Positions 2,797 through 46,783 of a stretch of DNA of 64,000 nucleotides are shown piece by piece. The stretch is from IMG/VR virus record IMGVR_UViG_3300042505_001288; one strand, written 5' to 3'. The translations under genes and the position numbers were made by a program. The stretch comes from an uncultured virus (IMG/VR IMGVR_UViG_3300042505_001288) (taxonomy: Duplodnaviria > Heunggongvirae > Uroviricota > Caudoviricetes). The stretch's first letter is position 1, and the number at the start of each line of letters is the position of its first letter. Below the pieces are notes generated by a model, which searched no databases, was not told the origin of the DNA, and saw nothing but the letters and a program-made list of their open reading frames with translations.

Positions 2797-2805
2797 AAAT
2801 TTCCT

Positions 2806-20700: not shown

Positions 20701-22289
20701 CCTTGATTTTTAACACCTGAATGAATTAAAACCACTTGATCAATAGTCGGTGTGCTAACTTCAACCAAATGAATAATTTTTGATAAGGATACACCATTCA
20801 ATGATAGATGTTCAAAATCTAAAATTTCTACTTCATATATTTTATTTTTAACTAATGGATCTGTATCAGCTGCTGCTAGAATTCTATGACCAGCTAGTAA
20901 ATCCACACCATCAATGTTATACCCATGTGATCCTTCAATTGTTGAAAATATATCAGTTGTATATGTATCTATAAGATCAACATCATTAATAGCAGTTGTT
21001 CCAAAATTAAATAATCTTATATCAGCTTCAAATTCAATAATTGCACGGTTTGCTCTTGCTGATTGATCTAAGTCAGCTATTTTATTATTGAATCTAGCAC
21101 TCGATTCTATAGTATCTTTATGGAACCATCTATTATATCTAGACCAAGGATTATGATCTCTACTAGCTCTATTAATAACAATGTAATCTGGCTGCCCTGC
21201 ATATGATAATGCATCATTGAATGGCAATTTATCAAAAGGTGTTGTATCAAATTCAACATTAACTGATGATGTATAAGAACTTGTCATCTCTAATACAGAT
21301 TCATTAACCAATCTTATCGAAGACCCAATACCTTCAACATAATATTTTCCAGTAGAATATTCAGAAGGTTCTACATTTCCACCAAATGTAACTTTCATGC
21401 CATTACTTAACGGTGTCCCGTCTGGTAATTTGTATGTTTTTTTACCTAATATCTCAGTTTCTACATTGATATATGAATTTTCTTCAATCGATAAAATGTG
21501 AATTACTCCACCTAAATCAGTATCATTTTCACTTTGATAATATAATACAGATGGTGCATCATGCGGAACTGTAAAAGTTATAGTACCAGTTTCTATAGTA
21601 TTATTTTTCAACCCTATATTAGTATATCTATTACTAGAACCAGAACTTCTATGTGTTTTGAAACTAAATGGATTTCCAGGACTTGTTATTTCAAAATTGT
21701 ATGTTTGTCCTTTGAATAAAGTAAGTACTGGATTTCTATCCAATCCATTTGGGGTGAATATATATGTATTATTGTCGCCTTCAGATTCTATGTTTACAGT
21801 GTAAGTACTTTCTATAGCATGTTTCTGCCCATATATTCTAACTACATCTGGTCCATATGGTAACCAATAATAATTTTGAAAGTTCGATATTTTATCCCAA
21901 TCAATATGTGGATCCCAACTGTAAAATTCTTCTTTATTAATTCTAGAATGGTTTGATACATCACTACCAAATACGTCTAATTGATTGATATAATCAATAT
22001 AATCTTTAAACAAGGTAGTGTTGTTCAACGTATCTTTAATAACTAATCCAGGCTCTAATTGATAATTTTGTCGAACTGTATCAGTAGCAGAAACAAATAT
22101 ATCTTCCCCAGAAGTTGCTTTAGCATTTCTACGACCAATATAACCATTTACTTTTTTAACAGTGCCAGGTTTAATTAATTGATCCATTGTAGCTTGTAAA
22201 AACTTTTTATTAAAATCAGTTGCATAGATTCTTGGTAAAAAGGTTGAAGAAATGTTATTACTGGCGTTTGGTTTTGTGCTATCAGCCAT
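8715..22289 (-). CDS. Giant (4524 aa) multidomain baseplate wedge/structural protein (gp7-like position)
   Basis: Uninterrupted 13.6 kb ORF coupled (TAATG) to the gp6-like gene; contains GxGY repeats, CBM-like W..Y..G.IV.Y repeats and propeller-like repeats. Confidence 0.7.
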   Translation of the reverse strand: MADSTKPNASNNISSTFLPRIYATDFNKKFLQATMDQLIKPGTVKKVNGYIGRRNAKATSGEDIFVSATDTVRQNYQLEPGLVIKDTLNNTTLFKDYIDYINQLDVFGSDVSNHSRINKEEFYSWDPHIDWDKISNFQNYYWLPYGPDVVRIYGQKHAIESTYTVNIESEGDNNTYIFTPNGLDRNPVLTLFKGQTYNFEITSPGNPFSFKTHRSSGSSNRYTNIGLKNNTIETGTITFTVPHDAPSVLYYQSENDTDLGGVIHILSIEENSYINVETEILGKKTYKLPDGTPLSNGMKVTFGGNVEPSEYSTGKYYVEGIGSSIRLVNESVLEMTSSYTSSVNVEFDTTPFDKLPFNDALSYAGQPDYIVINRASRDHNPWSRYNRWFHKDTIESSARFNNKIADLDQSARANRAIIEFEADIRLFNFGTTAINDVDLIDTYTTDIFSTIEGSHGYNIDGVDLLAGHRILAAADTDPLVKNKIYEVEILDFEHLSLNGVSLSKIIHLVEVSTPTIDQVVLIHSGVKNQGEMYWFNGDNWVKTQQKTSLNQPPLFDVVDDTGVSYSDINTFTGSTFSGTKLFSYKIGSGPADSVLGFPLSYKNINNIGDIVFNFNLISDTFIYKELSTVINKKINVGYLSKMDYAGNTEYVNGWQKNTIDNTQAAIRIYKSTTQLNDFQIDIFDNINELDDLTIKVYVNGTRLDNSKWQIIDGPTYKVVQLDTDVMPTDILTIRAFAAQGINGNGYYEIPLNLQNNPMNDEMTDFTLGEVIDHVNSIVDNLSNFSGDFPGTSNLRDLGNISQYGTRFIQHSGPASLSLYHITTETNNIIRSIEKSRDDYGNFKRNFIKIAERTGVDIDVITHIDLILDKINKDKPNTFPYYFSDMVPYGASIKTTIQVVDYRIKLYPLTTVFTTETLSNKAVIIYVNNEQLLHSRDYYFDGQGFVVITSKLINDDIITIYEYENTDGCFVPETPTKLGLFPKYQPMIYLDTSFITPRWMIQGHDGSQVLAYGTYDANGTPDYRDALLLELEKRIYNNIKVQYDITIFDLNDTIPGYNRKTDYSLSEFNTVLAPNFYKWTSLIDRDFSKPLSFDRSNSFTYNYSGHSAPDGSNVPGYWRGVYKWILDTDRPHLCPWEMLGFTEEPYWWTDVYGPAPYTSNNFVLWDDISNGYVKEPGKPTIRLEKYAKPFITNHIPVDEYGALVSPIMSDLANGIITESIGGDFVFGDSSPIESAWRRSSYYSFGILITVLLLNPNKSIGVLLDRSRIIRNKTGQLVYKDTGLRIKPSDIVLPSIQSSNTREQTAGIINYLVNYILSDNLKSYTQYQYDLTNISARISHRLGSFTSKEKFNLLLDSKTPLSTGSVFVPQENYDIILNSSNPIKKITYSGVIVTKMADGFEVKGYSKTTPYFKYYAWQQSGITINVGGISESYLQWTSNQQYSAGKIVNYNGKYYRVKSLHTTGTTFDQSYYQVLAELPIIGGKDAILRKRWDRESALIIPYNTKFRTTQEVVDFLQGYGEYLKDQGFIFDDFNTNIASVTNWETSAKEFLFWTTQNWSTGQDKWDEWDADVLVSYGSIVRYNGDYYRAIRNSQSSIFNEHDFAKLDGLSSIGSSVISLSPAAEKLTFSSPLSVVDDITNSFNGYEIYRVDGQAIPYNFLNSYREDNAVSYTPQGDDGIYGATFYLVQKEQVVILDNSTMFNDTIYNPESGYKQDRIKVSGYLSIGWYGAFDVPGFIFDQAKIQDWEAWKDYALGDIVKYKEFYYSSSKFINGTNEFNHTLWIKLDKKPEAALLPNWNYKASQFEDFYSLDSDNFDITQQKMAQHLIGYQKRQYLENIIQDDVSEFKFYQGMILEKGTQNVLNKLFDVLSADNQESLKFNEEWAVRVGQYGASNSYENIEFILDESLFKNNPQGIELVNKIDTTSVDFIIRQSQNDVYLKPVGYNSNPWPMLTSKKPFLRTSGYVREDEVLVSLKSIDDILTQDITNFSNGDYVWCSFDINGWNVYRYTDANIVINDITYSNNKLTITADSLISLPIGSYIGIRENIKVDGTYITTGISGFYKISDVKLNVLTIDVIGLQIDLPYENNKNTIIYSFISQRVDSIDNIDLKLPKVLKENELLWTDDNGTGMWSTWEYSQVYTRTTHLYRNPSNNLKYGKVISINSDARLLATTLETGEVITYDRGSSTGPWVQRQIIETPFITPDVDHVNPNDVSNIANVIAMSIDNRWMATGSPNTSNGSYQTNGFINAIDEQLNASSIVNHGVISLYEKDINNIYTLVATILSPNPTQNEKFGSSLFFGINCLYVGAEYGNGTVYKLEYSNTEWVSAYYDEIGSKGTTIKLSTVSGILPGMKVTGIGFTKSQTVVSVDSVNKTILLNLEPDSTPTGIIKFITTEWKYNTSKTKHGTNTNSGYGNKIVGTVDGSTLLISAPGNIDLPGKVFVYENDVLAQTIGGTNAYFGKDITISSSGEYISISDILFDGDKNNEGKVIVYKNNGIEYELYQSLINNNIEVSGYFGTKLLFTNDYKTLLVYSKNADTQVKCNFIDDTTFDDKTTIFIDENNLDSGRIDVYNNYGSKWVFSESLEMTDSEVDGYGTVLTASNNNILVSSPYAFSNNIKAGVIYEYKKQPNVYSWKIKHSEILIPDVKKIKQAFLYNKSTNELIKYLDIIDPLNGKIAGIAESEIKYKVFYDPAIYTVGTSTVNVDDGMAWTTKNIGTLWWDLRTSKFIDSNDNDVVYRNSTWSTLATGASVDIYEWVESKYLPSDWDLQADTEVGLTIGMSGKSLYGDAAYSIKRKYDNVSKTFKNTYYYWVKNKKTTPNTTGRYISAQDISSLISNPRGEGYQYLALTGSNSFSLVNVKSLLNDKNVVLSVEYWLVENSENNIHSQWKMLSTDVNSTIPSQLEKKWIDSLCGKDEQERVIPDTTLPLKLRYGVEFRPNQSMFINRYEALKQYVEQTNLILKSRLITETRDISNLESYETEPHIIRGLYDDIVDTDAELRFANINSYSRPVIEPQIIDGRITGITIKSSGRGYINPPFIEVVGSGVNAVIKAKLNGYGQIDGVTIINSGYGYNDSTILVVRDYSVLVHSDSQSSGVWSIYSYDPTTLLWSRVRSQTYDTRKYWNYVDWYDNGYNQFSAIQYSVDTYSDLNSIEVNIGELVKVRYTNLGTWVVLKKYADSQSIDWTSSYQLIASQDGTIQLSSSLYEFSHTIVGYDNLLYDGGIFDNSASTELRVILNSIKNDIFIDDLKTEYLNLFFTCVRYVLSEQSYVDWIFKTSFIKAKHNLGELHQSVTYKNDNLTNFEEYVSEVKPYRTKVREYISAYNKTELNQLSVTDFDIPPIYDNGNIGMIETTVTDGIINIDDSHIQSYPWKHWLDNVGFNVLSITVVNGGSGYISEPVVRINGNSKIAATAKAFIANGKVTRVILMTTGSGYLSAPIIQLDGGLSPTGTTATAVAIIGDGVIRSNLVKIKFDRITQSYYITKLQEIETFSGTGSRLIFPLKWAPDVRVGTSTVTINGIDALRDDYKLKIVKTVVNGHTNYVGSLTFLTAPSNNAIVSITYIKDWSLLNAADRIQYYYNPGDGELGKDLSQLMTGIDYGGVIVSGLGFEVSRGWDSSPYYSDKWDTMDSTFDDYIVYVAADTREFNLPYVPETGVVITVYHKPADSTDDPLRIDDQYYNTVDQTNSNAVMSSFIGDGIHKTITIPDSVDVNENDEFIFRKITSDGSIKPLEADYDTALSGGDLVYSTARGLAADDIIIDGDGFITPTSSPAPEEVIPGQVVDTVAIKVFDMQSNGSANINIDNYYADGIVKTFPITHGSTNNKSIIVKVSTNNQSVIKSIGVDYSIDGITNAIVFGQAPVADSLISIFEIGYSGNNLLDIGHDIGDGNTKEFLTCAPWLQPVSSLVNINGVSGSYTLINQDGFIAIKFDEAPEVYSNIDYIISNGVNQSFSFSKIEKIPADGRASALPYSLMTTYGDSLPLEAKMIVRVDQAILKAPNNSYFTIKSNKLNYTVNKINKQPYKDDVYTINVYAGGKLLTIGADYSIDLSGITVKITKDSYTKYNGEQLVISLISDQGYSYVPATSSEPAKIYFKEIYNSSNTVEIINSYQHANLDIQRSDLNLDITLVSEEPEYYIYNNILGGIITLDRPVINDNYVWVVKNGILLIPSVDFKLNENKSSIEVVNGSISTDEFSIITFGSNILLPSIAYMQFKDMLNRTHYKRLSLKKQTTLVNELKWNDTIITVVDGSNFDKPNPTNNKPGIIEIRGERIEYFEITGNILSKLRRGTLGTGTPTIHEVGSFVQDIGASETIPYSEAPITKQIVSTGSKVIELDDIIPTKSLTTWTYDSGYISSIPSTYGQADDIEVFIGGYDDSSMWVSSVNYAIDDIVIIGSYTYRCKEAHMSGLSFHDDILKWDFFIGNIRLKKQPYKVHNVNINQDSPSGDIQFDADFAVDGTSSTIRLTNELSSGTRVTIVKRSGINWDGYNMDLLNQGYRLGNYSSSVYGGSDAISTFLKAEPGIWYSLLK

Positions 22290-32261: not shown

Positions 32262-32900
32262 TCAAATATAAGACCAATTCTGAAATTTTTTACTACCACT
32301 TTTGCATCTTTTACAAACATTATTAGCTGTTATATTATGTGAGATCCCAGCATCTTGTAGTGAATTATAAATAATTCCATTAATTAGTACCTTTTTATAT
32401 TGTTTAGGTCTATTTTTCATTTTTTCATAAAATTCAGGATTTTTCCATAATTCTTTTCTGTAAATCGATAAACGGCGTTTAAATTCCTCATTATTTTTGA
32501 GCTTCATCAATCCAGCCAATGCAGCGGTTCTATATTCATAATTAGTTTTCCATTCGTGTTTTAATTTATCACTTTTCAATTGCTTCAAGTATGCATATAT
32601 CCTTGATGAAGTTTTGAATGTTCGGTCATGATTAGTAGTTTTCCATCTTAAAAATGATGATGCTGCATGTATCATCTTATATTGATCTTTACCACATGTA
32701 ATTTTAATCAATAACAAATGACATATATAATGCTCTCTTGCTGTTAATTGTACTAAATTTAATTTTGTATTGTCACCACCCATACTTTTTGGTATTATAT
32801 GATGTTTTTCAACATACATATCGGTAGGCAAAATTCGGTGTTGTGCATTATATATAATAGAAAAATACCACTTTTTATACTTATTATCAATAAATATCAT
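32262..32900 (-). CDS. Free-standing HNH homing endonuclease (Mob-like)
   Basis: EKHHIIPKSMGGDNTKLNLVQLTAREHYICHLLL HNH motif; basic C-terminal DNA-binding region (INGIIYNSLQDA). Confidence 0.85.
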   Translation of the reverse strand: MIFIDNKYKKWYFSIIYNAQHRILPTDMYVEKHHIIPKSMGGDNTKLNLVQLTAREHYICHLLLIKITCGKDQYKMIHAASSFLRWKTTNHDRTFKTSSRIYAYLKQLKSDKLKHEWKTNYEYRTAALAGLMKLKNNEEFKRRLSIYRKELWKNPEFYEKMKNRPKQYKKVLINGIIYNSLQDAGISHNITANNVCKRCKSGSKKFQNWSYI

Positions 32901-33031: not shown

Positions 33032-34042
33032 ATGAACTTATTCCACAAAGCAGCCTGTTTCACGGATATTCATTACGGCGCTAAAAGCAATAGTGAAATA
33101 CACAATCAAGATTGTTTAGATTTTACTAAATGGTTTATAGAAGTTTCTAAACAACAAAATTGTGAAACTTGTATAATTCTAGGTGATTATCACAATAATA
33201 GATCAACAATAAATACACGGACATTAGATTATATGCTTAAAAGTTTTGAATTGTTAAGCACTGCGTTTGAAAACACTTATATAATCCAAGGAAACCATGA
33301 TTTATTTTTTAAAGATAAACGTGATATCTCCAGTATAAAATGGGCATCCCATATAAAAAATATACATGTAATAGAAAAAGTTTCTTCTATTGGTAATGTA
33401 ACATTATGTCCTTGGTTGGTCGGGGATGAATGGAAATTACTTAACAAAATAAGTGGAAAATACATTTTTGGTCATTTTGAATTACCATCATTCTTTATGA
33501 ATTCTCTCGTCCAAATGCCAGATCACGGTGAAATTAGCTTGGAACAATTCCAAAACTATGAACTTGGATTTAGTGGACATTTTCATAAAAGACAAAATCG
33601 TGGAAATATGCATTATATTGGTAATGCATTTCCCCATAATTATGCAGATACGTGGGATGATGATCGTGGGATGATGATTTTAGAATGGGGTGGACAACCA
33701 GAATATCATGCATGGCCTAACCAGCCGACATTTAGAACTGTAAAACTTAGTCAATTAATTGATGATGCTGATAAAATTCTAAAACCAAAACAACATTTAA
33801 GAGTTACATTAGACATTGATATTAGTTTTGAAGAAGCTAGTTTTATTAAAGAAAAATATGTTGGTGATTATAGACTGCGTGAATTAACACTAATCGCTGA
33901 GAAAAAAGCAGTTGAAATTAATACAGATATCGATGTTCAAGCATTTGAAAGTATTGATACTATTGTAGCAAACCAAATCGTGAGTATCGAGTCAGATACT
34001 TTTAACAAAAACACTTTATTAGAAATTTATAACGGATTATGA
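33032..34042 (+). CDS. 47: Recombination endonuclease subunit (gp47, Mre11/SbcD-like)
   Basis: Metallophosphoesterase motifs DIHYG, GDYHN, GNHD, GHFE and SGHFH. Confidence 0.92.
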   Translation: MNLFHKAACFTDIHYGAKSNSEIHNQDCLDFTKWFIEVSKQQNCETCIILGDYHNNRSTINTRTLDYMLKSFELLSTAFENTYIIQGNHDLFFKDKRDISSIKWASHIKNIHVIEKVSSIGNVTLCPWLVGDEWKLLNKISGKYIFGHFELPSFFMNSLVQMPDHGEISLEQFQNYELGFSGHFHKRQNRGNMHYIGNAFPHNYADTWDDDRGMMILEWGGQPEYHAWPNQPTFRTVKLSQLIDDADKILKPKQHLRVTLDIDISFEEASFIKEKYVGDYRLRELTLIAEKKAVEINTDIDVQAFESIDTIVANQIVSIESDTFNKNTLLEIYNGL

Positions 34043-35817
34043 GTATAACCATTAAAGAATTAACCGTCAAGAATTTTATGTCGGTTGGTAATCAGACACA
34101 GGCAGTAAACTTCACAGCAGAAAATTTAACACTAGTTCTAGGTGAAAACCTAGATCAAGGTGGTGATGATTCTGGCTCAAGAAATGGTACTGGAAAAACT
34201 ACCATCGTTAATGCATTAAGTTTTGCATTGTATGGTGTTGCATTAACCAATATTAAAAAAGATAACTTAATTAATAAAATCAATAATAAAAATATGTTGG
34301 TTACATTAACATTATCTAAAGATGGTACTGATTATAAGATTGAACGTGGTAGAAAACCTGCTATATTAAACTTTATTAATGTTAGTGATCCAATAAAAAA
34401 TCAAGAAAGTGATAGTCAAGGGGAATCAAAAGATACTCAAGAAGATATCAACGATTTATTAGGAATGAGCCATGATATGTTTAAGCATATCTTAGCATTG
34501 AATACCTATTCTGAACCGTTTTTATCAATGAGAGCTGGTGATCAACGTGCCATAATTGAACAACTGTTAGGTATTACCCTGTTAAGTGAAAAAGCAGATA
34601 CCCTTGGAAAAGAGATTAAGAAAACTAAAGACTTGATATTCCAAGAAAAAGCAAACCTAGAAGCCACACAGAAAGCCAATGAAAAAATTCAACAAAGTAT
34701 TGATACATTGGTGATGAGTCAACGTGCTTGGAATGCTAAACACAAGGCTGATTTAGAGAAAATTGCTAAATCCATAGTAGAACTTGAAAGCCTTAATATT
34801 GAAAAAGAAATTCAAGCACATTCAGATGTTAAAATTTATAACGAACAATATGCTAAAATTAAAAGCTTGTCAAAAGAAAAGGCAACCTTGGATTCTGCAA
34901 TCACACAAGCATATAAAACATTATCCAAATATGTGAATGATTATGAAACATTACAATCAAAAAAATGTCCAGCATGTGATCAAGATTTACATGACCACAA
35001 ACATGATGAAATGATAGCAACTGCTAATACTAATGTTATTGAATCTCAAAAATATTACGATAAAGTAGTATCGGAATTAACTTTAATTTCAGATGAATTA
35101 TCGAGCATTCAAAATATAGGATTACAACCTGAAACATTTTATGATACATTAGAAGAAGCACTTAAACACCAGAATAATTTGTCAACATTAACAGCCCAAT
35201 TAAATGTGAAAGCCGTTGAAGTCAACCCATATGATGATCAAATCATTGAATTGAAAAGTGAAGCATTACAAGAAATTAATTGGGATATTATCAACGATTT
35301 GAATAAACTAAAAGATCACCAAGATTTTTTACAAAAACTATTGACTAATAAAGATAGTTTTATTCGTAAAAAAATCATTGATCAAAACTTATCGTATTTG
35401 AATAATCGATTAACTTATTACTTAGATAAAATGGGTTTACCACATACTGTAGTATTTCAAAATGATTTATCGGTTGAAATTACACAACTTGGTCAGGAGT
35501 TAGATTTTTTTAATCTTAGTCGAGGAGAAATGACTAGAGTTACTCTAGGGCTAAGTTTCGCATTCCGCGATGTTTACGAAAGCTTGTATTCATCTATTAG
35601 TTTATTGTTCATCGATGAATTAGTTGATAATGGATTGGATGCAAATGGTGTAGAAAATGCAATCGGTATTATGAAAAAAATTGCAAGAGAACGAAACAAA
35701 AATGTATTTTTGATTAGTCATAAAGATGAATTAGCAAGCAGAGTTAATAATGTATTAAAAGTTGTTAAGGAAAATGGTTATACTTCATACGCAACCGACC
35801 TTGAAATTATAGAATAA
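34039..35817 (+). CDS. 46: Recombination ATPase subunit (gp46, Rad50/SbcC-like)
   Basis: KNFMSVGN, Walker A NGTGKT, CPAC zinc hook, LSRGE signature, LLFIDE Walker B, ISHK H-loop. Confidence 0.93.
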   Translation: MSITIKELTVKNFMSVGNQTQAVNFTAENLTLVLGENLDQGGDDSGSRNGTGKTTIVNALSFALYGVALTNIKKDNLINKINNKNMLVTLTLSKDGTDYKIERGRKPAILNFINVSDPIKNQESDSQGESKDTQEDINDLLGMSHDMFKHILALNTYSEPFLSMRAGDQRAIIEQLLGITLLSEKADTLGKEIKKTKDLIFQEKANLEATQKANEKIQQSIDTLVMSQRAWNAKHKADLEKIAKSIVELESLNIEKEIQAHSDVKIYNEQYAKIKSLSKEKATLDSAITQAYKTLSKYVNDYETLQSKKCPACDQDLHDHKHDEMIATANTNVIESQKYYDKVVSELTLISDELSSIQNIGLQPETFYDTLEEALKHQNNLSTLTAQLNVKAVEVNPYDDQIIELKSEALQEINWDIINDLNKLKDHQDFLQKLLTNKDSFIRKKIIDQNLSYLNNRLTYYLDKMGLPHTVVFQNDLSVEITQLGQELDFFNLSRGEMTRVTLGLSFAFRDVYESLYSSISLLFIDELVDNGLDANGVENAIGIMKKIARERNKNVFLISHKDELASRVNNVLKVVKENGYTSYATDLEIIE

Positions 35818-35883: not shown

Positions 35884-36237
35884 ATGGGTAGAAAAGTTGA
35901 ACCAAAACAAGATTACGCACCGAGAGTTTATAGCTGGCAGTTAGAGCAGATTCCAACTGATGATGAAATTCACGATAAATTAATTCATGCTTTCCAACAA
36001 TATTATAAAGCTAATTTGCATTGGATCCAAGCCGGTACTAAACGTTCTGGCCAAGATGCAAGATATTGGTTAAATGAAATTAACATCCTTTCTAAACAAC
36101 AACGTAAAGTTATTTTAGAATGGCTTAATAAAATTAAAGATAAAACCAATAAAGATAGAAGTTTTAAATCAACTTCTAGAAAACAACGTAAACTTTTACA
36201 GATTCAAGGTAGGGTGAACCCATCGGAAGATAACTAA
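35884..36237 (+). CDS. Small basic helical protein, possibly nucleic-acid binding
   Basis: The track start (TTG 35848) lies inside the -35 box, so ATG 35884 is more plausible. GTKRSGQDARYWLNEI weakly recalls the KAAGxRARK motif of small histone-H1-like proteins. Confidence 0.55.
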   Translation: MGRKVEPKQDYAPRVYSWQLEQIPTDDEIHDKLIHAFQQYYKANLHWIQAGTKRSGQDARYWLNEINILSKQQRKVILEWLNKIKDKTNKDRSFKSTSRKQRKLLQIQGRVNPSEDN

Positions 36238-36304
36238 ATAATTCCACCAATATAACTTCCAAAGATAAATACATTTATTATAAAATAGTATATTGGAGGT
36301 TATA

Positions 36305-37486
36305 ATGGATTATGGACACTGGTTATTTAATGTTGAATTTACTACTGATGAATGGTTCGGTTTTATCTATAAAATTACAGAACTTGATACTGGGCGTGAA
36401 TATATTGGTAAGAAACAATTTTTTAATACTACTCGAAAAATTGTTAAAGGTAAGAAAAATAGAAAAAAAGTAATTTCTGAATCAAATTGGAAAGTTTATA
36501 CAGGTTCATCTGAGCATCTAAATTCTCAAATTAGTATAAAAGGTAAAGAAAATTACAAATTTGAAATATTATCATTACACGATTCAAAAGGATCATTACA
36601 TTACGCTGAAGTAGAATACCAAATTACACACAATGTCCTCCGGGAATTATTAGATGATGGAATTACAAAAAAATACTTTAATAGAGCAGTTGCAGGTGTT
36701 AAATTTATTCCACCGGTAGAATCTGTTGATGAAACTAGAATAGCAATCAGTAAAATTCTAACAGGAGATAATTATACAATAGCGAAAATGACTGTTGCTG
36801 ATTATGAAAAGTGGTTGGATGAGAATTTAAGAGGTGAACATAACCCAATGTTTGGTAAAATCCCTCATAATAAGAATAAGACATTTGAAGAATTATATGG
36901 TGTTGAAAAAGCAGCCAGGTTAAAAAAAATGTTAAGCAATTATGCAAAGCAACAATTTTTAAATGGTAAAATGAATCATGGTAAACATTCTGATGAAACT
37001 AAAGAAAAATTGAGACAGGCAAATATAGGCAAACACAAAGGAAAAAATAATAATATGTATGGTAAGCCATGTTACCATAAAATGGATGAAAAACAAATCG
37101 AGGCTTGGAAAGAAAACATAAGTAAAGCAACAAAGGGTAAAAAATTATCAGACACCCATAAAGCTGCAATGAAAAAAAATTGGGATAATAACCCAATTAG
37201 AAAAAAAGAATGTGCGATTCGTCGTTCTGAAATGAATAAAATGTTAAGCGACGAACATAAAAACGCAACCCGGAATTCAAATATAAAACGTGGATATGAG
37301 ACTACTAGAAAAAAAGTAGAAAATGATTTAGAAAGATATATTAATATCACTAGATTATTGAATAATGGTAGATTAGTAAAAGATATTGCTATTGAGACCG
37401 ATTCCACGTATAGATTAGTTTGGATCATTTCGAAAAAAATAGAATATTATGTATCTATAATAAATGATATTAAAGGCACACAATAG
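36305..37486 (+). CDS. GIY-YIG (Seg-like) endonuclease with NUMOD3-type repeats and a C-terminal HTH-like end
   Basis: FGFIYKITELDTGREYIGKKQF...WKVYTGSS; repeats GEHNPMFGK, HSDETKEKLRQA, GKNNNMYGK, KGKKLSDTHK. GGAGG SD before ATG 36305; ATAAATA motif at 36265. Confidence 0.8.
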   Translation: MDYGHWLFNVEFTTDEWFGFIYKITELDTGREYIGKKQFFNTTRKIVKGKKNRKKVISESNWKVYTGSSEHLNSQISIKGKENYKFEILSLHDSKGSLHYAEVEYQITHNVLRELLDDGITKKYFNRAVAGVKFIPPVESVDETRIAISKILTGDNYTIAKMTVADYEKWLDENLRGEHNPMFGKIPHNKNKTFEELYGVEKAARLKKMLSNYAKQQFLNGKMNHGKHSDETKEKLRQANIGKHKGKNNNMYGKPCYHKMDEKQIEAWKENISKATKGKKLSDTHKAAMKKNWDNNPIRKKECAIRRSEMNKMLSDEHKNATRNSNIKRGYETTRKKVENDLERYINITRLLNNGRLVKDIAIETDSTYRLVWIISKKIEYYVSIINDIKGTQ

Positions 37487-37930
37487 GTATCATCAGGCAA
37501 TTTAACCGAACACTCTAAGGCACACTCTAAGGCAACTCTAGGCTCCACACTTCTGAAATACTCGCACAGGTAGATTGATATGTGCCGTTGGCAATGGAAT
37601 GTTCTTCGCATTGAGCGCAACAACTGAGCAGAAGCAGTGACTTTTTCGACTACCTACACCTTGTGTTGTAGATGATGATTGGATACGCCTTCCGTAAAAC
37701 CAATTTCGAAAATTTGAACAAATGAAAAAAGGCTAAATGACTGGGTAATTCCCAGACGTAATAGGAATTTGACTAGAGTATTTTCCTATTGCCACCGTTG
37801 GACATCAGAAACAAAAACGCACTTCGAGGTAACGGCCAACCGCCTCTGTAATAGTGTAACTCTAGGTAATGAAGTAACTCAAATGAGAATTTATTATTTT
37901 TTGCTCCCTTCGGGGGGCAAAATGTGTAAA
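37487..37930 (+). ncRNA. Candidate large structured non-coding RNA (unassigned family)
   Basis: No ORF in the track and visibly GC-richer than the flanks. At least 8 stems, two loop-to-distal complementarities and a terminal C(UUCG)G hairpin at 37899-37922. Confidence 0.6.
37510..37543 (+). repeat. Tandem 12-bp repeat (2 perfect copies + 1 degenerate)
   Basis: ACACTCTAAGGC ACACTCTAAGGC AACTCTAGGC. Confidence 0.9.
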
Positions 37931-38006
37931 TCATAATCTAAATGAGTATAGCACATATACATTACTTTTGATAATAAGAGAACAGTGAAGAGCGATAGCG
38001 ATGAAC

Positions 38007-38024
38007 AGGGGAACATGTTCCCCT
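38007..38024. repeat. Perfect 18-bp palindrome
   Basis: AGGGGAACATGTTCCCCT, just upstream of the ATAAATA motif at 38032. Confidence 0.9.
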
Positions 38025-38059
38025 CCTATGAATAAATATATTATTGACGGATTAATAAA

Positions 38060-39124
38060 ATGAAAGTATATGAAATTGTTAGTACAAATAAAGAATTAAA
38101 TGAAGGACTCAAATCAAAAATATTTGGTGGTGCACTCGATGCAATTATGAATGTTCTTGGTAAGGGATCTGCTAAACAACACCTTGATGATTTATCTCGG
38201 TTTGTTCGGTCAAATGGGAAGCTTGATATTGATTCAATAAGAAATACTAGAAAGTATGGAAATTTTGTTGCTGATAAACTTGAAAGTGACCCTAAATTAG
38301 TTAAGCAAATAGAAAAGATAGCAAGTAATAAGATAAGCAATGCTACTTTTACAAAAAATGTAGCAGAACTTAAAGCAATTACATCTAAAATAAAAACTGC
38401 AGCTGGATCTTTACTTTGGGCAATTGATTCTGCAGCACAATTATATATTGGATTTAAAGGATTATATGAACCAATTGCAACATATTATAGCAATATTGAA
38501 ATTGCTGAAGAGCGATACTTAGATACTGGTAAATGGACACCTGAAGAATTTAATACATATCATAGACGTGAAGCTGGTGCATTGGTTGGTAAATTAACAG
38601 CCAATATAGTTGCTTTTACTGCATCCAGAATACCAGGCGCTATTGTAAAAACTGTTTTAGTAAGATTATCGAAGATATTAGGTAAAGCTGGTAATATTGG
38701 CCCATTAGAAACTATTATTTCTGGTATGAATACAGCTGCTGCTGCTGCTGCAATACAATGGATTAATAACGAACATAATGCATCAATTATTGCTAATTTG
38801 TTAGCGAAACCATTGATAGCTGACATATCAGCGAATGATATAGCTGGTGGTGCTATTACTACAGTAATTGATGCTTTTAAGGGTATTAGCAATCAATCAA
38901 CCAGTAGTAATATCAGTGGAATTCCATCTAGTGATGCTGCAATTGGAAATAACAGTAGTACAGAACCAAATAATACTGCATCCACACCAGTTAGTACACA
39001 AACACCAGCTGCAACTGGATCGGGATCACCCGCAGCGTATAATCCTGATGATTGGGAATATTATACGCCATCCTTGGTTAAAAATAAGAAAACTGGTGAG
39101 ATTAATTTCAAGCAATCAAATTAA
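38060..39124 (+). CDS. Hypothetical late protein, possibly head-internal/ejected
   Basis: 354-aa ORF after a late-promoter motif; helical with hydrophobic stretches and a Ser/Thr/Pro-rich tail. Confidence 0.6.
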   Translation: MKVYEIVSTNKELNEGLKSKIFGGALDAIMNVLGKGSAKQHLDDLSRFVRSNGKLDIDSIRNTRKYGNFVADKLESDPKLVKQIEKIASNKISNATFTKNVAELKAITSKIKTAAGSLLWAIDSAAQLYIGFKGLYEPIATYYSNIEIAEERYLDTGKWTPEEFNTYHRREAGALVGKLTANIVAFTASRIPGAIVKTVLVRLSKILGKAGNIGPLETIISGMNTAAAAAAIQWINNEHNASIIANLLAKPLIADISANDIAGGAITTVIDAFKGISNQSTSSNISGIPSSDAAIGNNSSTEPNNTASTPVSTQTPAATGSGSPAAYNPDDWEYYTPSLVKNKKTGEINFKQSN

Positions 39125-39348
39125 TGGTAGTTGAGTTTTTTTAGTATTTTCAATATTTTCTTTAATAATATTGTACATAATATCTCGATCTTCTGAGGTG
39201 TATCTATCCATTAAATCATTTACGGATACACCTCCTCTCATATACCAACTTACCTTGAAATAATCTTCTTTAAGATGTTTAATTTCTTCATCTAGCCTAA
39301 CTAGATATTCATTTATTTCTTCAGATGATAATCCAATTAGGCGTTGTC
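39116..39348 (-). CDS. Start-less gp51-like ORF, probably the -1 frameshift extension of the gp26-like gene
   Basis: Not in the track. The -1 frame reads RQRLIGLSSEEINEYLVRLDEEIKHLKEDYFKVSWYMRGGVSVNDLMDRYTSEDRDIMYNIIKENIENTKKTQLPLI* (TGA 39118-39116). Confidence 0.7.
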
Positions 39349-40161
39349 GAAAAAATTTGAATAATCTAAATCTATATTAAGAAGTGCGTCTTTACCACAC
39401 TCGCATTGTACTGACATTGGTGGAATATTCCATTTTTGTTTTGTATTTTCAATTTGTTTTTTTATAGCATCTGTGATTTCTTTATCACAATTCTCGATCC
39501 ATTCTAAAATATAACCACGTTCAGATACTGTCATATCAGTAGTTTGAACTGAATCAATACTGGCAACATATGAGTCTCTTTGGATCTCAGCCAATTCAAT
39601 CCATAATGCATTAATTGATTCTTGTTGTTCTTCTTTTGATTCTAGGTTTTCTACTTGTGATAATTTCTGTCTTAATTCAAAATTCTTGATATTAAAATCA
39701 GTAAATTGTTTATAACTAAATGGTTTGGTTTTTATAATTAAATCTCTAATTACTATTTTATTATCATACTTACATGACATAAAATGATCTATTATGGTTG
39801 ATAAATCTACTGTATATTCATTTATCTCACCACATGCTTTGCATACATGACCAATAGTCATATCATTACCAAATGTTGCAATTTTAATCGCAGCAAAAAT
39901 TAATTCACTATCCAAGGTTGAAATATCCCACCCATCTTTAATAGATGGACAACAGCTTTGAATAATTTTCACAGAACTTTCACCTGATAATAATGCATCA
40001 GGGGTTTTTGCAATAATTTCGTCCATGCCAGTCATACCATATACTGGCAATCTATCTGCTGGGCCATCAATTGTCCCAACTCTATTGTAAATTCCTTTAC
40101 TAGGTAAATCGATGAAAATCTTTGGTTGTCTAAAATAATTCTGTAATGGATTTGCTGCCAT
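39337..40161 (-). CDS. Baseplate hub assembly protein (T4 gp26-like)
   Basis: NPLQNYFRQPKIFIDLPS, MTGMDEIIAKTPDALLSG, D.ELIFAAIKIATFG, CKAC and CECG Cys pairs, terminal LDYSNFF. Confidence 0.75.
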   Translation of the reverse strand: MAANPLQNYFRQPKIFIDLPSKGIYNRVGTIDGPADRLPVYGMTGMDEIIAKTPDALLSGESSVKIIQSCCPSIKDGWDISTLDSELIFAAIKIATFGNDMTIGHVCKACGEINEYTVDLSTIIDHFMSCKYDNKIVIRDLIIKTKPFSYKQFTDFNIKNFELRQKLSQVENLESKEEQQESINALWIELAEIQRDSYVASIDSVQTTDMTVSERGYILEWIENCDKEITDAIKKQIENTKQKWNIPPMSVQCECGKDALLNIDLDYSNFFDNA

Positions 40162-45491: not shown

Positions 45492-46118
45492 ATGTTATAT
45501 CTCCGAGAAAACCTCAGTTTCAACGAAGCACAGATGATCGTTGAATCTGATGATAGAGAAGGTAAAACATTGCATATGTCAGGTATCTGCATTCAAGGCG
45601 GTATCCGTAATGCAAATCAACGTGTTTACCCTGTGAGCGAGATTAGCAAGGCTGTTAAGACCCTTAACGATCAGATTCAAAACGGTTATTCAGTACTCGG
45701 AGAAGTGGATCATCCAGATGATCTAAAAATAAATTTGGACCGTGTGTCACATATGATAACTAATATGTGGATGGATGGTCCAAATGGTTATGGCAAGCTT
45801 AAAATCTTGCCAACCCCTATGGGACAACTAATTAAAACAATGTTGGAAAGCGGCGTTAAATTAGGTGTCTCCTCTAGAGGTTCTGGAAACGTCAGTAGTG
45901 ACGGGTCCAATTCAGTATCAGATTTTGAGATTATCACAGTAGATATGGTAGCCCAGCCGTCCGCTCCAGGTGCTTACCCAACACCAATTTATGAACACCT
46001 AATGAATACAAGAGGTGGTTATAATGCCTTCCGCGTAGCGCAAGAGGTGAAAGGTGATCCACAGGCGCAAAAATATCTCAAAGAATCTTTAGTTAATATT
46101 ATTAATGGATTGAAATAA
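45492..46118 (+). CDS. 21: Prohead core protease (T4 gp21-like)
   Basis: NANQRVYP, LGEVDHP, RVSHMI, LGVSSRGSG, DMVAQPSAPGAY. Confidence 0.95.
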   Translation: MLYLRENLSFNEAQMIVESDDREGKTLHMSGICIQGGIRNANQRVYPVSEISKAVKTLNDQIQNGYSVLGEVDHPDDLKINLDRVSHMITNMWMDGPNGYGKLKILPTPMGQLIKTMLESGVKLGVSSRGSGNVSSDGSNSVSDFEIITVDMVAQPSAPGAYPTPIYEHLMNTRGGYNAFRVAQEVKGDPQAQKYLKESLVNIINGLK

Positions 46119-46783
46119 TGACGATTGCTTATCTGTATAAATGGACAAATAAATTATCTGGAAAATGGTACATAGGATCTAGGACTAGAAAAGATTGTCA
46201 TCCAAATGATGGTTATATTTGTTCCAGTAAACTTGTTAGACCAATGATAATTGAAGATCGGTCTAAATGGAAAAGAACCATTTTGGTTATCGGTAATCCA
46301 CAATATATTAGAGAATTGGAAAGTAAATTATTAACTAGTTTAAATGCTGCGGACAATGACATGAGTTTTAATCAACACAATGGTGCTGGAAAATTCTCTA
46401 CTACCGGAATAGCCCCATGTAATAAAGGCAAAACTGGATTACAAGTAGCATGGAATAAAGGACTACCAAAAGAAAAACAACCGTTTTTTGGAAAATCAAT
46501 TAGTCATGAAGTTCGTGAAAAATTAAGTATTAGAAAACAGGGTGAAAATAACCCAATGTACGGTAAACCAGCATGGAACAAGGGTTTAACTGGTATAACC
46601 CATTCTGACGAATCGAATAAAAAACGCAGTGAATCGTTGAAAGGGAAATCTCGTTCACCAGAAACGATAGCAAAAATAAAAAGAACAAAAGCAGCTAACA
46701 AAGCTGCGAAACTAAATACAGCAGTAGAAATACCAACGTATAACAAAACCGAGAGCCTGTATTATACAGGAAATCTCCAATAA
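46118..46783 (+). CDS. Free-standing GIY-YIG homing endonuclease with NUMOD3-type repeats
   Basis: AYLYKWTNKLSGKWYIGSR..DGYICSS; repeated WNKG, GENNPMYGK and HSDESNKKRSESLKGK; TAATG coupling to the protease. Confidence 0.85.
   Translation: MTIAYLYKWTNKLSGKWYIGSRTRKDCHPNDGYICSSKLVRPMIIEDRSKWKRTILVIGNPQYIRELESKLLTSLNAADNDMSFNQHNGAGKFSTTGIAPCNKGKTGLQVAWNKGLPKEKQPFFGKSISHEVREKLSIRKQGENNPMYGKPAWNKGLTGITHSDESNKKRSESLKGKSRSPETIAKIKRTKAANKAAKLNTAVEIPTYNKTESLYYTGNLQ

What the first reader, a model, noticed from the sequence alone, without database searches (positions are those of the whole stretch)
36305..38030. GIY-YIG nuclease gene followed immediately by a candidate ~450-nt pseudoknotted ncRNA
Seen: the longest non-coding gap in an otherwise packed window starts right at the nuclease stop codon. 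It is GC-richer than its flanks and dense in pairings: GCACA/TGTGC (37564/37581), CTACA/TGTAG (37654/37667), ATTGG-TACG/CGTA-CCAAT (37678-37704), CTGGG/CCCAG (37741-37755), a 10-bp GTAATAGGAA/TTCCTATTGC stem (37758-37792), GCACT-GAGGT/GCCTC-AGTGT (37819-37857), TAATGAA-CTC/GAG-TTTATTA (37867-37896) and TTTTGCTCCC-TTCG-GGGGGCAAAA (37899-37922). Loop GCCTT (37687) matches AAGGC (37729), loop CTAGAGT (37773) matches ACTCTAG (37859), and CCGTT (37795) matches AACGG (37831). G-U pairs and a UUCG loop indicate a plus-strand RNA. Known: nuclease plus structured-RNA cassettes exist (HEARO/omegaRNA with IscB; introns carrying homing endonucleases). Inference: an undescribed ribonucleoprotein, ribozyme or RNA-guided nuclease cassette. 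An RNA-primed replication origin is an alternative.
Basis: partly seen in the sequence, partly recalled or inferred. Interest (0 to 1): 0.9.

Follow-up and report, generated by a model that had tools for sequence, protein, structure and literature searches.

The report
Known phage RNA beside swappable nuclease
The folded stretch after the nuclease gene is a real RNA gene of about 470 bases whose core is already catalogued (function unknown), and the nuclease beside it behaves like a mobile, replaceable neighbour and not like an enzyme guided by that RNA.

Summary
Window 37559-38024 (+) is a large pseudoknotted RNA gene directly after a SegE-type GIY-YIG nuclease gene (36305-37486) in a T4-like phage. 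It is not undescribed: 37559-37715 matches Rfam RF01718 (Polynucleobacter-1 RNA) at 61 bits against a cut-off of 37. Not found in print: the phage home, a conserved ~160-nt tail, and two 8-nt boxes in that tail that co-vary in the same sense.

The nuclease link is strong but not obligate. Of 69 related viral loci, 64 have a GIY-YIG gene directly upstream, 1 has it one gene away, 3 have an unrelated PDDEXK nuclease, and 1 has none. A relative with flanks more than 99% identical carries the PDDEXK cassette in place of this Seg cassette. Bacterial short forms have no nuclease neighbour. Three isolate phages carrying the small nuclease showed no such RNA.

Best reading: an autonomous RNA gene with a homing-type nuclease cassette parked beside it, like T4 SegB among tRNA genes. 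An RNA-guided enzyme is unlikely (about 0.1). This scan reached the same conclusion earlier on other DNA (e1-5782845).

The parts
36305..37486 (+). Seg-type GIY-YIG nuclease gene, 393 aa. N-terminal SegE GIY-YIG domain at residues 11-128, then a NUMOD3-containing C-terminal extension.
   Evidence: PF19835 at E 3.8e-33; NUMOD3 at 21.3 bits (cut-off 20.4); phrog_447, phrog_7363 and phrog_314. 56-68% identical to L012 and L009, and only 34-43% identical to the small 141-150 aa form.
36238..37516 (+). Swappable nuclease cassette, 1279 nt. L003 has a 508-nt PDDEXK_15 cassette in its place.
   Evidence: blastn of window against L003: 99.7% identity up to 36237 and 99.1% from 37517 onward, with no match between. 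L003 365-883 is PF24608 at E 6.2e-28.
37510..37543 (+). Tandem 12-nt duplication ACACTCTAAGGC x2 plus a third degenerate copy, at the right junction of the cassette.
   Evidence: Read directly. Homology with L003 and L004 starts at 37514-37517.
37559..37715 (+). 5' domain of the RNA; match to Rfam RF01718 Polynucleobacter-1 over model positions 1-141.
   Evidence: 61 bits against gathering score 37, E 1.6e-10. It is the only Rfam match in the window.
37716..37866 (+). 3' domain: AAAGGCUAA linker (37727-37735), hairpin 37741-37755, long hairpin 37758-37792, nested stems 37819-37857, and a pseudoknot between 37773-37779 and 37859-37865.
   Evidence: Present in the published alignment with a pseudoknot line. 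Covariation on 64 sequences.
37875..37888 (+). Box 1 (TAACTCAAATGAGA), first of two direct repeats that co-vary in the same sense.
   Evidence: Repeat pair found in 108 of 115 distinct sequences with 16 core types. Normalised mutual information with the equivalent positions of box 2 is 0.86-0.94; all other columns are 0.35 or less.
37899..37922 (+). Tail hairpin T2 (UUUUGCUCCC-UUCG-GGGGGCAAAA).
   Evidence: Helix 8: 91.6% paired, 3 pairs with changes on both sides. No U-tract follows it.
37934..37947 (+). Box 2 (TAATCTAAATGAGT), partner of box 1.
37990..38001 (+). Core of tail hairpin T6 (GAGC-GAUA-GCGA).
   Evidence: Unique in the window: 1 match against 0.08 expected. Inner pairs co-vary. 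In relatives the outer stem has 4 or more pairs in 58 of 63 sequences with 39 distinct stems, against 11% when flanks are swapped. The outer stem is weak in this window.
38007..38024 (+). Tail hairpin T7, likely the 3' end of the RNA (terminator-like, short U-tract).
   Evidence: 7 bp in this window. A hairpin of 4 or more pairs is found in 61 of 63 relatives with 31 distinct stems, but that was a fitted best-hairpin search. The consensus terminator scan did not call it.
38031..38038 (+). AATAAATA, resembling the T4-type late promoter TATAAATA, ahead of the next gene (38060-39124).
   Evidence: Read directly. L009 has TATAAATA at the equivalent place. The consensus is recalled, not tested.

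Best explanation
Window 37559-38024 encodes a stand-alone structured RNA of about 470 nt. It is the long phage form of the Polynucleobacter-1 RNA family (Rfam RF01718). It has three parts: the catalogued 5' domain, a pseudoknotted 3' domain, and a tail of about 160 nt found only in the phage form.

The gene upstream is a free-standing Seg-type GIY-YIG homing endonuclease cassette parked beside this conserved RNA gene, as T4/T6 segB sits among tRNA genes.

Shown: the RNA fold, the family membership, the near-constant nuclease neighbour, and the recent cassette swap.

Inferred: the nuclease cuts the equivalent locus of co-infecting relatives that lack it, and repair copies the cassette together with the adjoining RNA gene. 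The RNA therefore travels with the nuclease and does not guide it. The RNA itself acts in trans, with its own partners. My guess, at about one in three, is that it is a decoy or scaffold that helps the phage against the host.
For: Family membership:
- RF01718 at 61 bits against a cut-off of 37, full model.
- The 3' domain and pseudoknot match the published alignment.
- 32 of 44 tested pairs show compensatory changes in 64 relatives.

Genome type:
- T4-like. gp47- and gp46-like genes lie upstream, a gp26-like hub gene lies downstream, and gp20, gp21, gp23 and gp25 are in the window.
- Two more homing-endonuclease-like ORFs lie in the same 64 kb: 32262-32900 and 46118-46783.

Nuclease mobility:
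- Window and L003 are 99.7% and 99.1% identical on the two sides of a clean replacement, 1279 nt of Seg against 508 nt of PDDEXK_15.
- The PDDEXK form also occurs in the distant L030.

RNA without the nuclease:
- 9 bacterial short forms were found. In 5 of the 5 with flanks, the neighbour is a divergent DUF6641 gene and no GIY-YIG.
- L048 has no nuclease within 2.2 kb upstream.
- L057 and L294 have an ORF inserted between nuclease and RNA.

Nuclease without the RNA:
- The small GIY-YIG is in 310 isolate phage records, one place each.
- In 7 records inspected, the downstream neighbours were protein genes or tRNAs. None of the 3 scanned with Rfam had RF01718.

Precedent:
- SegB homologues co-localise with tRNA genes and can amplify neighbouring RNA genes (PMC13096335: abstract, section 10 and passages read).
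- PMC2330249 was seen as a search listing and abstract start only.
Against: - The association is much tighter than expected for a sporadic selfish gene. 64 of 69 loci have GIY-YIG directly upstream, and 68 of 69 have a nuclease in or next to the slot.
- 65 of 72 close small-GIY-YIG loci have the RNA downstream.
- The small proteins are well conserved, with mean column identity 73%.
- In a 99%-complete 345-kb genome there is exactly one such nuclease and one RNA, and they are adjacent.
- Every replacement seen in the slot is another nuclease.
- A relative of this window's nuclease (L012) is followed by a different large non-coding region ending in the same two hairpin types.
- No cleavage site, transcript or homing event has been observed.
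- The RNA's function is a guess.
Confidence: 0.6

Rival explanations
1. The nuclease slot and the RNA form one functional unit. The RNA binds, guides, scaffolds or is processed by whichever nuclease is encoded upstream, and the two co-varying 8-nt boxes serve as its specificity elements.
For: - 68 of 69 loci have a nuclease in or next to the slot, across three unrelated or distant nuclease types.
- The small form is a bare catalytic domain of 141-150 aa with no DNA-binding module.
- The median distance from the stop codon to the 3'-domain motif is 256 nt. This puts the RNA start about 10 nt after the stop, so co-transcription is likely.
- One nuclease and one RNA per genome, adjacent.
- The boxes co-vary with each other only.
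- L012 shows the same theme with a different RNA-like region.
Against: - The window and L003/L004 share identical boxes but carry different nucleases.
- No complement of the boxes was found in the RNA or in 5-kb loci.
- There is no variable terminal guide.
- Bacterial short forms lack a nuclease.
- 310 isolate records carry the small nuclease; in the 7 inspected the neighbours were protein genes or tRNAs, and the 3 scanned had no RF01718.
- ORFs can sit between nuclease and RNA (L057, L294).
- All loci come from one phage clade, so the counts are not independent events.
Confidence: 0.12
2. In most relatives the small nuclease in the slot is a housekeeping DNA-structure nuclease (junction-resolving or debranching) that belongs with the neighbouring gp46/gp47 recombination genes. 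On this view its adjacency to the RNA is inherited gene order only.
For: - It is single-copy and core-like in 310 isolates, and the proteins are conserved.
- It lies next to gp46 in many loci.
- Its replacement, PF24608, matches phrog_244, which is annotated 'RusA-like Holliday junction resolvase'.
- No RusA was found in three records, and that search's control genomes did give matches.
Against: - This window's enzyme is a distinct long Seg form with NUMOD3 modules, only 34-43% identical to the small form, and it is recently swapped.
- The EndoVII search is uninformative because no control genome gave a match.
- In isolates the small gene is not near gp46.
- No resolvase activity has been tested.
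Confidence: 0.18
3. The RNA is a cis-acting 3' untranslated region of the nuclease mRNA, serving as a stabiliser, terminator or autoregulatory site.
For: Same strand, about 10 nt after the stop codon in small-form loci, and it ends in a terminator-like hairpin.
Against: - About 470 nt with two pseudoknots is far more than such a role needs.
- The RNA is kept when the nuclease is replaced or separated from it.
- Bacterial forms stand alone.
Confidence: 0.05
4. The RNA, or its DNA, serves replication, as an RNA-primed origin. This was the reader's alternative and also the reading of an earlier scan note on a marine look-alike.
For: It lies between divergently oriented early and late gene blocks. 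Two direct repeats flank a hairpin.
Against: No test was possible. The boxes do not fit a DnaA-box consensus (my comparison, with the consensus recalled). UUCG-containing and GNNA loops with co-varying stems point to RNA-level selection.
Confidence: 0.04
5. A self-splicing intron carrying its homing endonuclease.
For: A nuclease ORF beside a structured RNA.
Against: - No intron family scored at E of 1 or less.
- The flanking ORFs are complete.
- In many loci the downstream genes are on the opposite strand, for example L021, L031, L044, L045, L067 and L081.
Confidence: 0.01

Closest known systems
Polynucleobacter-1 RNA motif (Rfam RF01718; Weinberg et al. 2010, PMC2864571)
   Same: The 5' domain scores 61 bits over the full model. 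The 3' domain, its conserved GGUACCGG..ACCGCC core and the hairpin-loop pseudoknot are in the authors' 16-sequence alignment.
   Different: - The paper's table lists it as probably cis-regulatory, from Burkholderiales and fresh water or estuary. Here it sits in T4-like phage genomes and is often followed by genes on the opposite strand.
- The tail of about 160 nt (two co-varying boxes and hairpins T2, T6 and T7) lies beyond the published alignment.
- The nuclease neighbour is not mentioned in the text I could read. Supplementary files S1.DOC and S3.PDF, which hold motif descriptions and gene contexts, could not be read.
T4/T6 SegB, a free-standing GIY-YIG homing endonuclease in the tRNA gene cluster (PMC2330249, listing only; PMC13096335, abstract, section 10 and passages)
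   Same: A Seg-family GIY-YIG gene sits directly beside structured RNA genes in a T4-like myovirus. The paper describes such nucleases as mobile in origin yet repeatedly retained. Here there is presence/absence and replacement polymorphism between close relatives.
   Different: The neighbour is one large RNA of unknown function, not tRNAs. Cleavage, homing and amplification are untested. No tandem amplification was seen: each of the 120 viral stretches had one match.
OMEGA systems (IscB or TnpB with omega RNA; HEARO RNA)
   Same: A nuclease gene abuts a structured RNA of several hundred nucleotides on the same strand.
   Different: The nuclease fold differs: GIY-YIG or PD-(D/E)XK, not RuvC/HNH. 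There is no HEARO match, no terminal variable guide and no obligate pairing.

Membership tests
Rfam RF01718 Polynucleobacter-1 RNA | Covariance-model score at or above the curated gathering score over the whole model | tested here: met
   61 bits against 37, model positions 1-141 of 141, E 1.6e-10.
Rfam RF01718 Polynucleobacter-1 RNA | 3' extension with hairpins, nested stems and loop-to-tail pseudoknot, as in the authors' full alignment | tested here: met
   Published SS_cons and SS_cons_1 lines. The same helices co-vary in 64 viral sequences, and the pseudoknot co-varies at 7 of 7 pairs.
Rfam RF01718 Polynucleobacter-1 RNA | Cis-regulatory position upstream of a gene, as the authors tentatively scored it | tested here: not met
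   In many loci the next genes are on the opposite strand. The same holds for bacterial short forms. This is a tentative annotation, not a defining feature of the family.
Free-standing Seg-type GIY-YIG homing endonuclease | GIY-YIG catalytic domain of the Seg type | tested here: met
   PF19835 at E 3.8e-33. The GIY and YIG motifs and the conserved Glu and Asn columns are kept.
Free-standing Seg-type GIY-YIG homing endonuclease | C-terminal DNA-binding modules | tested here: inconclusive
   NUMOD3 is just above the cut-off at 21.3 against 20.4 bits. phrog_314 'homing endonuclease' aligns over residues 18-347. No solved relative was found by sequence.
Free-standing Seg-type GIY-YIG homing endonuclease | Own ORF between genes, with presence/absence or replacement among close relatives | tested here: met
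   Clean cassette replacement in flanks more than 99% identical.
Free-standing Seg-type GIY-YIG homing endonuclease | Site-specific cleavage of the cassette-free allele and biased inheritance | not testable with these tools
   Needs enzyme assays and mixed infections.
RNA-guided nucleases (OMEGA, CRISPR-like) | Variable guide segment complementary to a target | tested here: not met
   The only variable constrained segments are the two internal boxes. No complement was found in the RNA or in the 5-kb loci.
RNA-guided nucleases (OMEGA, CRISPR-like) | Obligate co-occurrence of effector and RNA | tested here: not met
Group I or group II intron with homing endonuclease | Interrupted host gene and an intron RNA core | tested here: not met
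   No intron family scored at E of 1 or less. The flanking ORFs are intact, and downstream genes are often convergent.

The most novel reading that the evidence does not exclude
The nuclease slot and the RNA are one system. The two 8-nt boxes in the RNA tail stay identical to each other while differing between phage lineages. On this reading they are specificity elements that program, or are read by, whichever small nuclease is encoded upstream. This could work for targeted cutting, or for SegB-like amplification of the RNA gene as an anti-defence cargo.
Probability: 0.1. Interest if true: 0.85.

Novelty: new variant of a known kind. Interest (0 to 1): 0.45.

Why it matters
The Polynucleobacter-1 RNA has had no function and no known home beyond one bacterium and lake or estuary metagenomes since 2010. 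Here it turns out to be mainly a phage RNA:
- The genomes are T4-like and reach up to 345 kb.
- The RNA is about 470 nt long.
- It is almost always next to a small nuclease gene.

That gives a concrete experimental handle: which partner does it bind, and does it counter a host defence? It also extends the recently reported link between Seg nucleases and RNA genes from tRNAs to a large structured RNA.

The same-sense covariation of two short boxes is an unusual signature. It implies a shared, lineage-specific partner that has not yet been identified.

For the original claim the result is sobering. The RNA is catalogued, and the nuclease is replaceable.

Tried and rejected
- Intron: rejected.
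- tRNA or tmRNA: none in the window.
- Sigma-70 promoters and intrinsic terminators around the RNA: no more than in shuffles, 13 against 10.2 and 1 against 0.9.
- Nucleotide search of isolate phages with 36200-38100: no match.
- Nearest held virus record, G001: a 32.8-kb fragment with no RF01718 match.
- Whole-region minimum free energy: z-score only -1.46.
- Partner for the two boxes. I looked for reverse complements in the RNA and in whole loci, ran duplex folding against the upstream RNA, and compared them with the start regions of neighbouring genes. Nothing was consistent.
- Small ORFs ending at the boxes: the frame is not conserved (my reading).
- DnaA-box, sigma-70 -10 and CsrA-site resemblances: considered by eye and dropped, because the variable positions fall on their essential bases. 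These consensus sequences are recalled.
- T4 small hairpin flanking CUUCG: only 14 of 33 regex hits had 3 or more pairs, so it is present in a subset at best.
- GCCTT/AAGGC pseudoknot: the crude swap test was null.
- RNA sequencing runs: no RNA holder was listed.
- EndoVII search: no control genome gave a match, so it is uninformative.
- Literature: 'Polynucleobacter-1' occurs in one paper of the library. Searches on GIY-YIG with RNA-guided or noncoding RNA and on homing endonuclease with structured RNA and T4-like found no description of this pair. PMC10690425 has no mention of GIY or Polynucleobacter in its main text.
Full report
WHAT IS THERE. The window is part of a T4-like phage genome.
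- Upstream of the finding lie gp47-like (33032-34042) and gp46-like (34039-35817) recombination nuclease genes. Downstream lies a gp26-like baseplate hub gene (39337-40161, minus strand).
- Elsewhere in the window are gp20 portal, gp21 protease, gp23 capsid and gp25 genes.
- ORF 36305-37486 encodes 393 aa. It has an N-terminal SegE-type GIY-YIG domain (PF19835, E 3.8e-33), a NUMOD3 match just above cut-off, and matches to PHROG families annotated as homing endonucleases.
- The 573 nt up to the next gene (38060) are richer in G+C than the flanks.

THE RNA IS REAL, AND ITS CORE IS KNOWN.
- The only Rfam match in the 64 kb is RF01718, Polynucleobacter-1 RNA, at 37559-37715 (+). It scores 61 bits against a gathering score of 37 and covers the full model. 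Nothing else scores at E of 1 or less in 37300-38200.
- The family comes from Weinberg et al. 2010 (PMC2864571). I read the main-text table, the stored Stockholm alignment in supplementary file 5 and the text of the consensus drawing in file 6.
- Twelve of its 16 sequences extend about 150 nt beyond what Rfam models. That extension holds the hairpins, the GGUACCGG..ACCGCC core and a pseudoknot line that pairs the long hairpin's loop with a downstream strand.
- The paper is the only one in the library that holds the family name.

RELATIVES AND COVARIATION.
These gave 107 distinct 585-nt extracts, most only 46-56% identical to the window in a MAFFT alignment.
- On 64 diverse sequences (A2) the structure I wrote down has 95.5% of cells paired, against 77.8% in shuffles and 35-46% when partners are slid. 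32 of 44 pairs changed on both sides, and 0 of 500 shuffles reach any of these measures. The pseudoknot co-varies at 7 of 7 pairs.
- RNAalifold independently recovers most of these helices.
- Abundant G-U pairs fix the plus strand as the RNA strand.

A TAIL BEYOND THE PUBLISHED MOTIF. Conservation continues for about 160 nt after the pseudoknot. In order it holds:
- box 1 (37875-37888);
- hairpin T2 (37899-37922);
- a UGUGAC motif;
- box 2 (37934-37947);
- in a subset of relatives, a small hairpin around CUUCG;
- hairpin T6, whose core GAGC-GNNA-GCGA (37990-38001) is unique in the window;
- hairpin T7 (38007-38024).

In relatives the T6 outer stem has 4 or more pairs in 58 of 63 sequences with 39 distinct stems, against 11% when flanks are swapped. 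T7 has 4 or more pairs in 61 of 63, though that came from a fitted best-hairpin search. In this window the T6 outer stem is weak and T7 is strong.

THE TWO BOXES ARE UNEXPLAINED.
- Boxes 1 and 2 are direct repeats: NNA-CUC-core and NNA-UCU-core. The pair is present in 108 of 115 distinct sequences with 16 core types. Four more sequences have a variant prefix.
- Each variable position of box 1 shares normalised mutual information of 0.86-0.94 with the same position of box 2. No other column exceeds 0.35.
- Same-sense covariation cannot come from the two boxes pairing with each other.
- I found no complementary partner in the RNA, in the 5-kb loci or in this window.
- The window and L003/L004 have identical boxes but different nucleases, so the boxes do not track the nuclease type.
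- L015 is a natural variant lacking box 1, T2 and the pseudoknot strand.

THE NUCLEASE NEIGHBOUR.
- I called the nearest ORFs around the RNA in 75 loci. I dropped six loci that repeat the same or near-identical contigs and gave the 69 upstream ORFs to Pfam.
- 63 are SegE_GIY-YIG, 3 are PDDEXK_15 (L003, L004, L030) and 3 are something else.
- Of those last three, L051 does have the GIY-YIG gene, which my ORF picker missed because it overlaps its neighbour. L057 has it one gene further upstream. L048 has none within 2.2 kb.
- The final tally is 64 directly upstream, 1 one gene away, 3 PDDEXK and 1 none.
- In most loci the protein is a bare 141-150 aa catalytic domain. It is well conserved, with mean column identity 73%.
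- This window's 393-aa enzyme belongs to a separate subgroup with L009 and L012. It is 56-68% identical to those and only 34-43% identical to the small form.

REVERSE DIRECTION.
- Among the 80 closest viral relatives of the small protein, 72 have at least 450 nt of downstream sequence. Of these, 57 carry the 3'-domain motif and 8 more carry RF01718, making 65 of 72. The other 7 have an ORF straight after the nuclease and no RNA within the 1.5 kb held.
- More distant relatives behave differently. The protein family is in 310 isolate phage records, one place each.
- In Melnitz, S-SSM4, phiM12, P-HM1, Bellamy, C48C1 and ACP17 it is followed by protein genes or, in two cases, tRNA genes. None of the three scanned with Rfam shows RF01718.
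- The pairing is therefore a trait of one clade of uncultured phages. The counts above are not independent events.

GENOME-LEVEL COUNTS.
- A 345-kb, 99%-complete record has one RNA and one SegE-type gene, adjacent, and no PDDEXK_15.
- The 164.7-kb record behind L004 (45% complete) has one RNA, no SegE-type gene and one adjacent PDDEXK_15.
- A third record has one RNA with the adjacent GIY-YIG gene plus a partial second hit.

THE SWAP.
- Against L003 the window is 99.7% identical up to 36237 and 99.1% identical from 37517 onward for 3.5 kb.
- Between those points the window holds 1279 nt (the Seg cassette) and L003 holds 508 nt (the PDDEXK_15 cassette).
- The right junction lies in a tandem 12-nt duplication (37510-37533), about 40 nt before the Rfam start.
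- This is what turnover of free-standing homing endonuclease genes looks like.
- The window holds two further homing-endonuclease-like ORFs.

BACTERIAL SHORT FORMS.
They are in Polynucleobacter, Comamonadaceae and a bin labelled Nitrospira.
- In all 5 loci with flanks, the RNA is divergent from a DUF6641 gene. Two have a phage-type integrase about 0.7 kb downstream. None has a GIY-YIG gene.

READING.
- The RNA is autonomous. The nuclease is a neighbour that is ancestral in this clade and, in this window's subgroup, demonstrably mobile.
- The closest precedent is SegB among the T4/T6 tRNA genes. A 2026 paper reports that SegB homologues are significantly co-localised with tRNAs. It also reports that SegB-made breaks drive amplification of adjacent RNA genes to escape host defences (PMC13096335: abstract, section 10 and two passages read).
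- I therefore favour 'RNA gene plus hitch-hiking or escorting nuclease' at 0.6. I keep a functional nuclease-RNA unit at about 0.1, mainly because the slot is always filled by a nuclease and because L012 repeats the theme with a different RNA-like region.
- What the RNA does remains inference.

EARLIER NOTES OF THIS SCAN.
- e1-5782845, on another genome that shares 20 of 129 sampled words, reached the same 'swappable nuclease beside phage RNA' conclusion. My independent counts agree with it, although I find the association tighter than its wording suggests.
- e1-5735907 describes a marine look-alike and proposes a locus-acting, origin-like role. I could not test that.

Noticed in passing
window 32262-32900 (-) and 46118-46783 (+): Two more homing-endonuclease-like ORFs. 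One is 212 aa with an I-TevI DNA-binding domain and lies just before the gp47-like gene. The other is 221 aa with NUMOD3 and lies between the prohead protease and capsid genes.
   Followed up: no
L012 2327-3010: A relative of this window's nuclease (148 aa, 56% identical) is followed by a different non-coding region of about 680 nt. It has three copies of a 26-nt repeat and ends in T6-like and T7-like hairpins. No Rfam match at E of 0.1 or less.
   Followed up: partly
L165, L168, L174, L188, L202 (bacterial loci): The short 5'-domain-only form of the RNA sits divergent from a DUF6641 gene in 5 of 5 loci. A phage-type integrase lies about 0.7 kb downstream in 2 of them, which suggests a small integrated element.
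   Followed up: partly
L015 around 2526-2560: A natural variant of the RNA that lacks the pseudoknot 3' strand, box 1 and hairpin T2.
   Followed up: no
window 1742-2805 and 61849-62750: ORF-poor stretches of 1064 and 902 nt with only 41-59 aa ORFs, GC 0.35 and 0.38. No Rfam match and no similarity to the fetched loci.
   Followed up: partly
window 8715-22289 (-): A single open reading frame of about 4,500 codons, not analysed. The window's first 1435 nt are the glycine-rich end of another minus-strand gene that runs off the window.
   Followed up: no
L048 4934-5016: A weak tmRNA-like match, 24 bits against a gathering score of 47, about 2.5 kb downstream of the RNA.
   Followed up: no
S-SSM4 (L135 4609-4681) and Bellamy (L258 2135-2965): In these two cyanophage isolates the small GIY-YIG gene is followed within about 200 nt by tRNA genes, echoing the SegB-tRNA association.
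   Followed up: no
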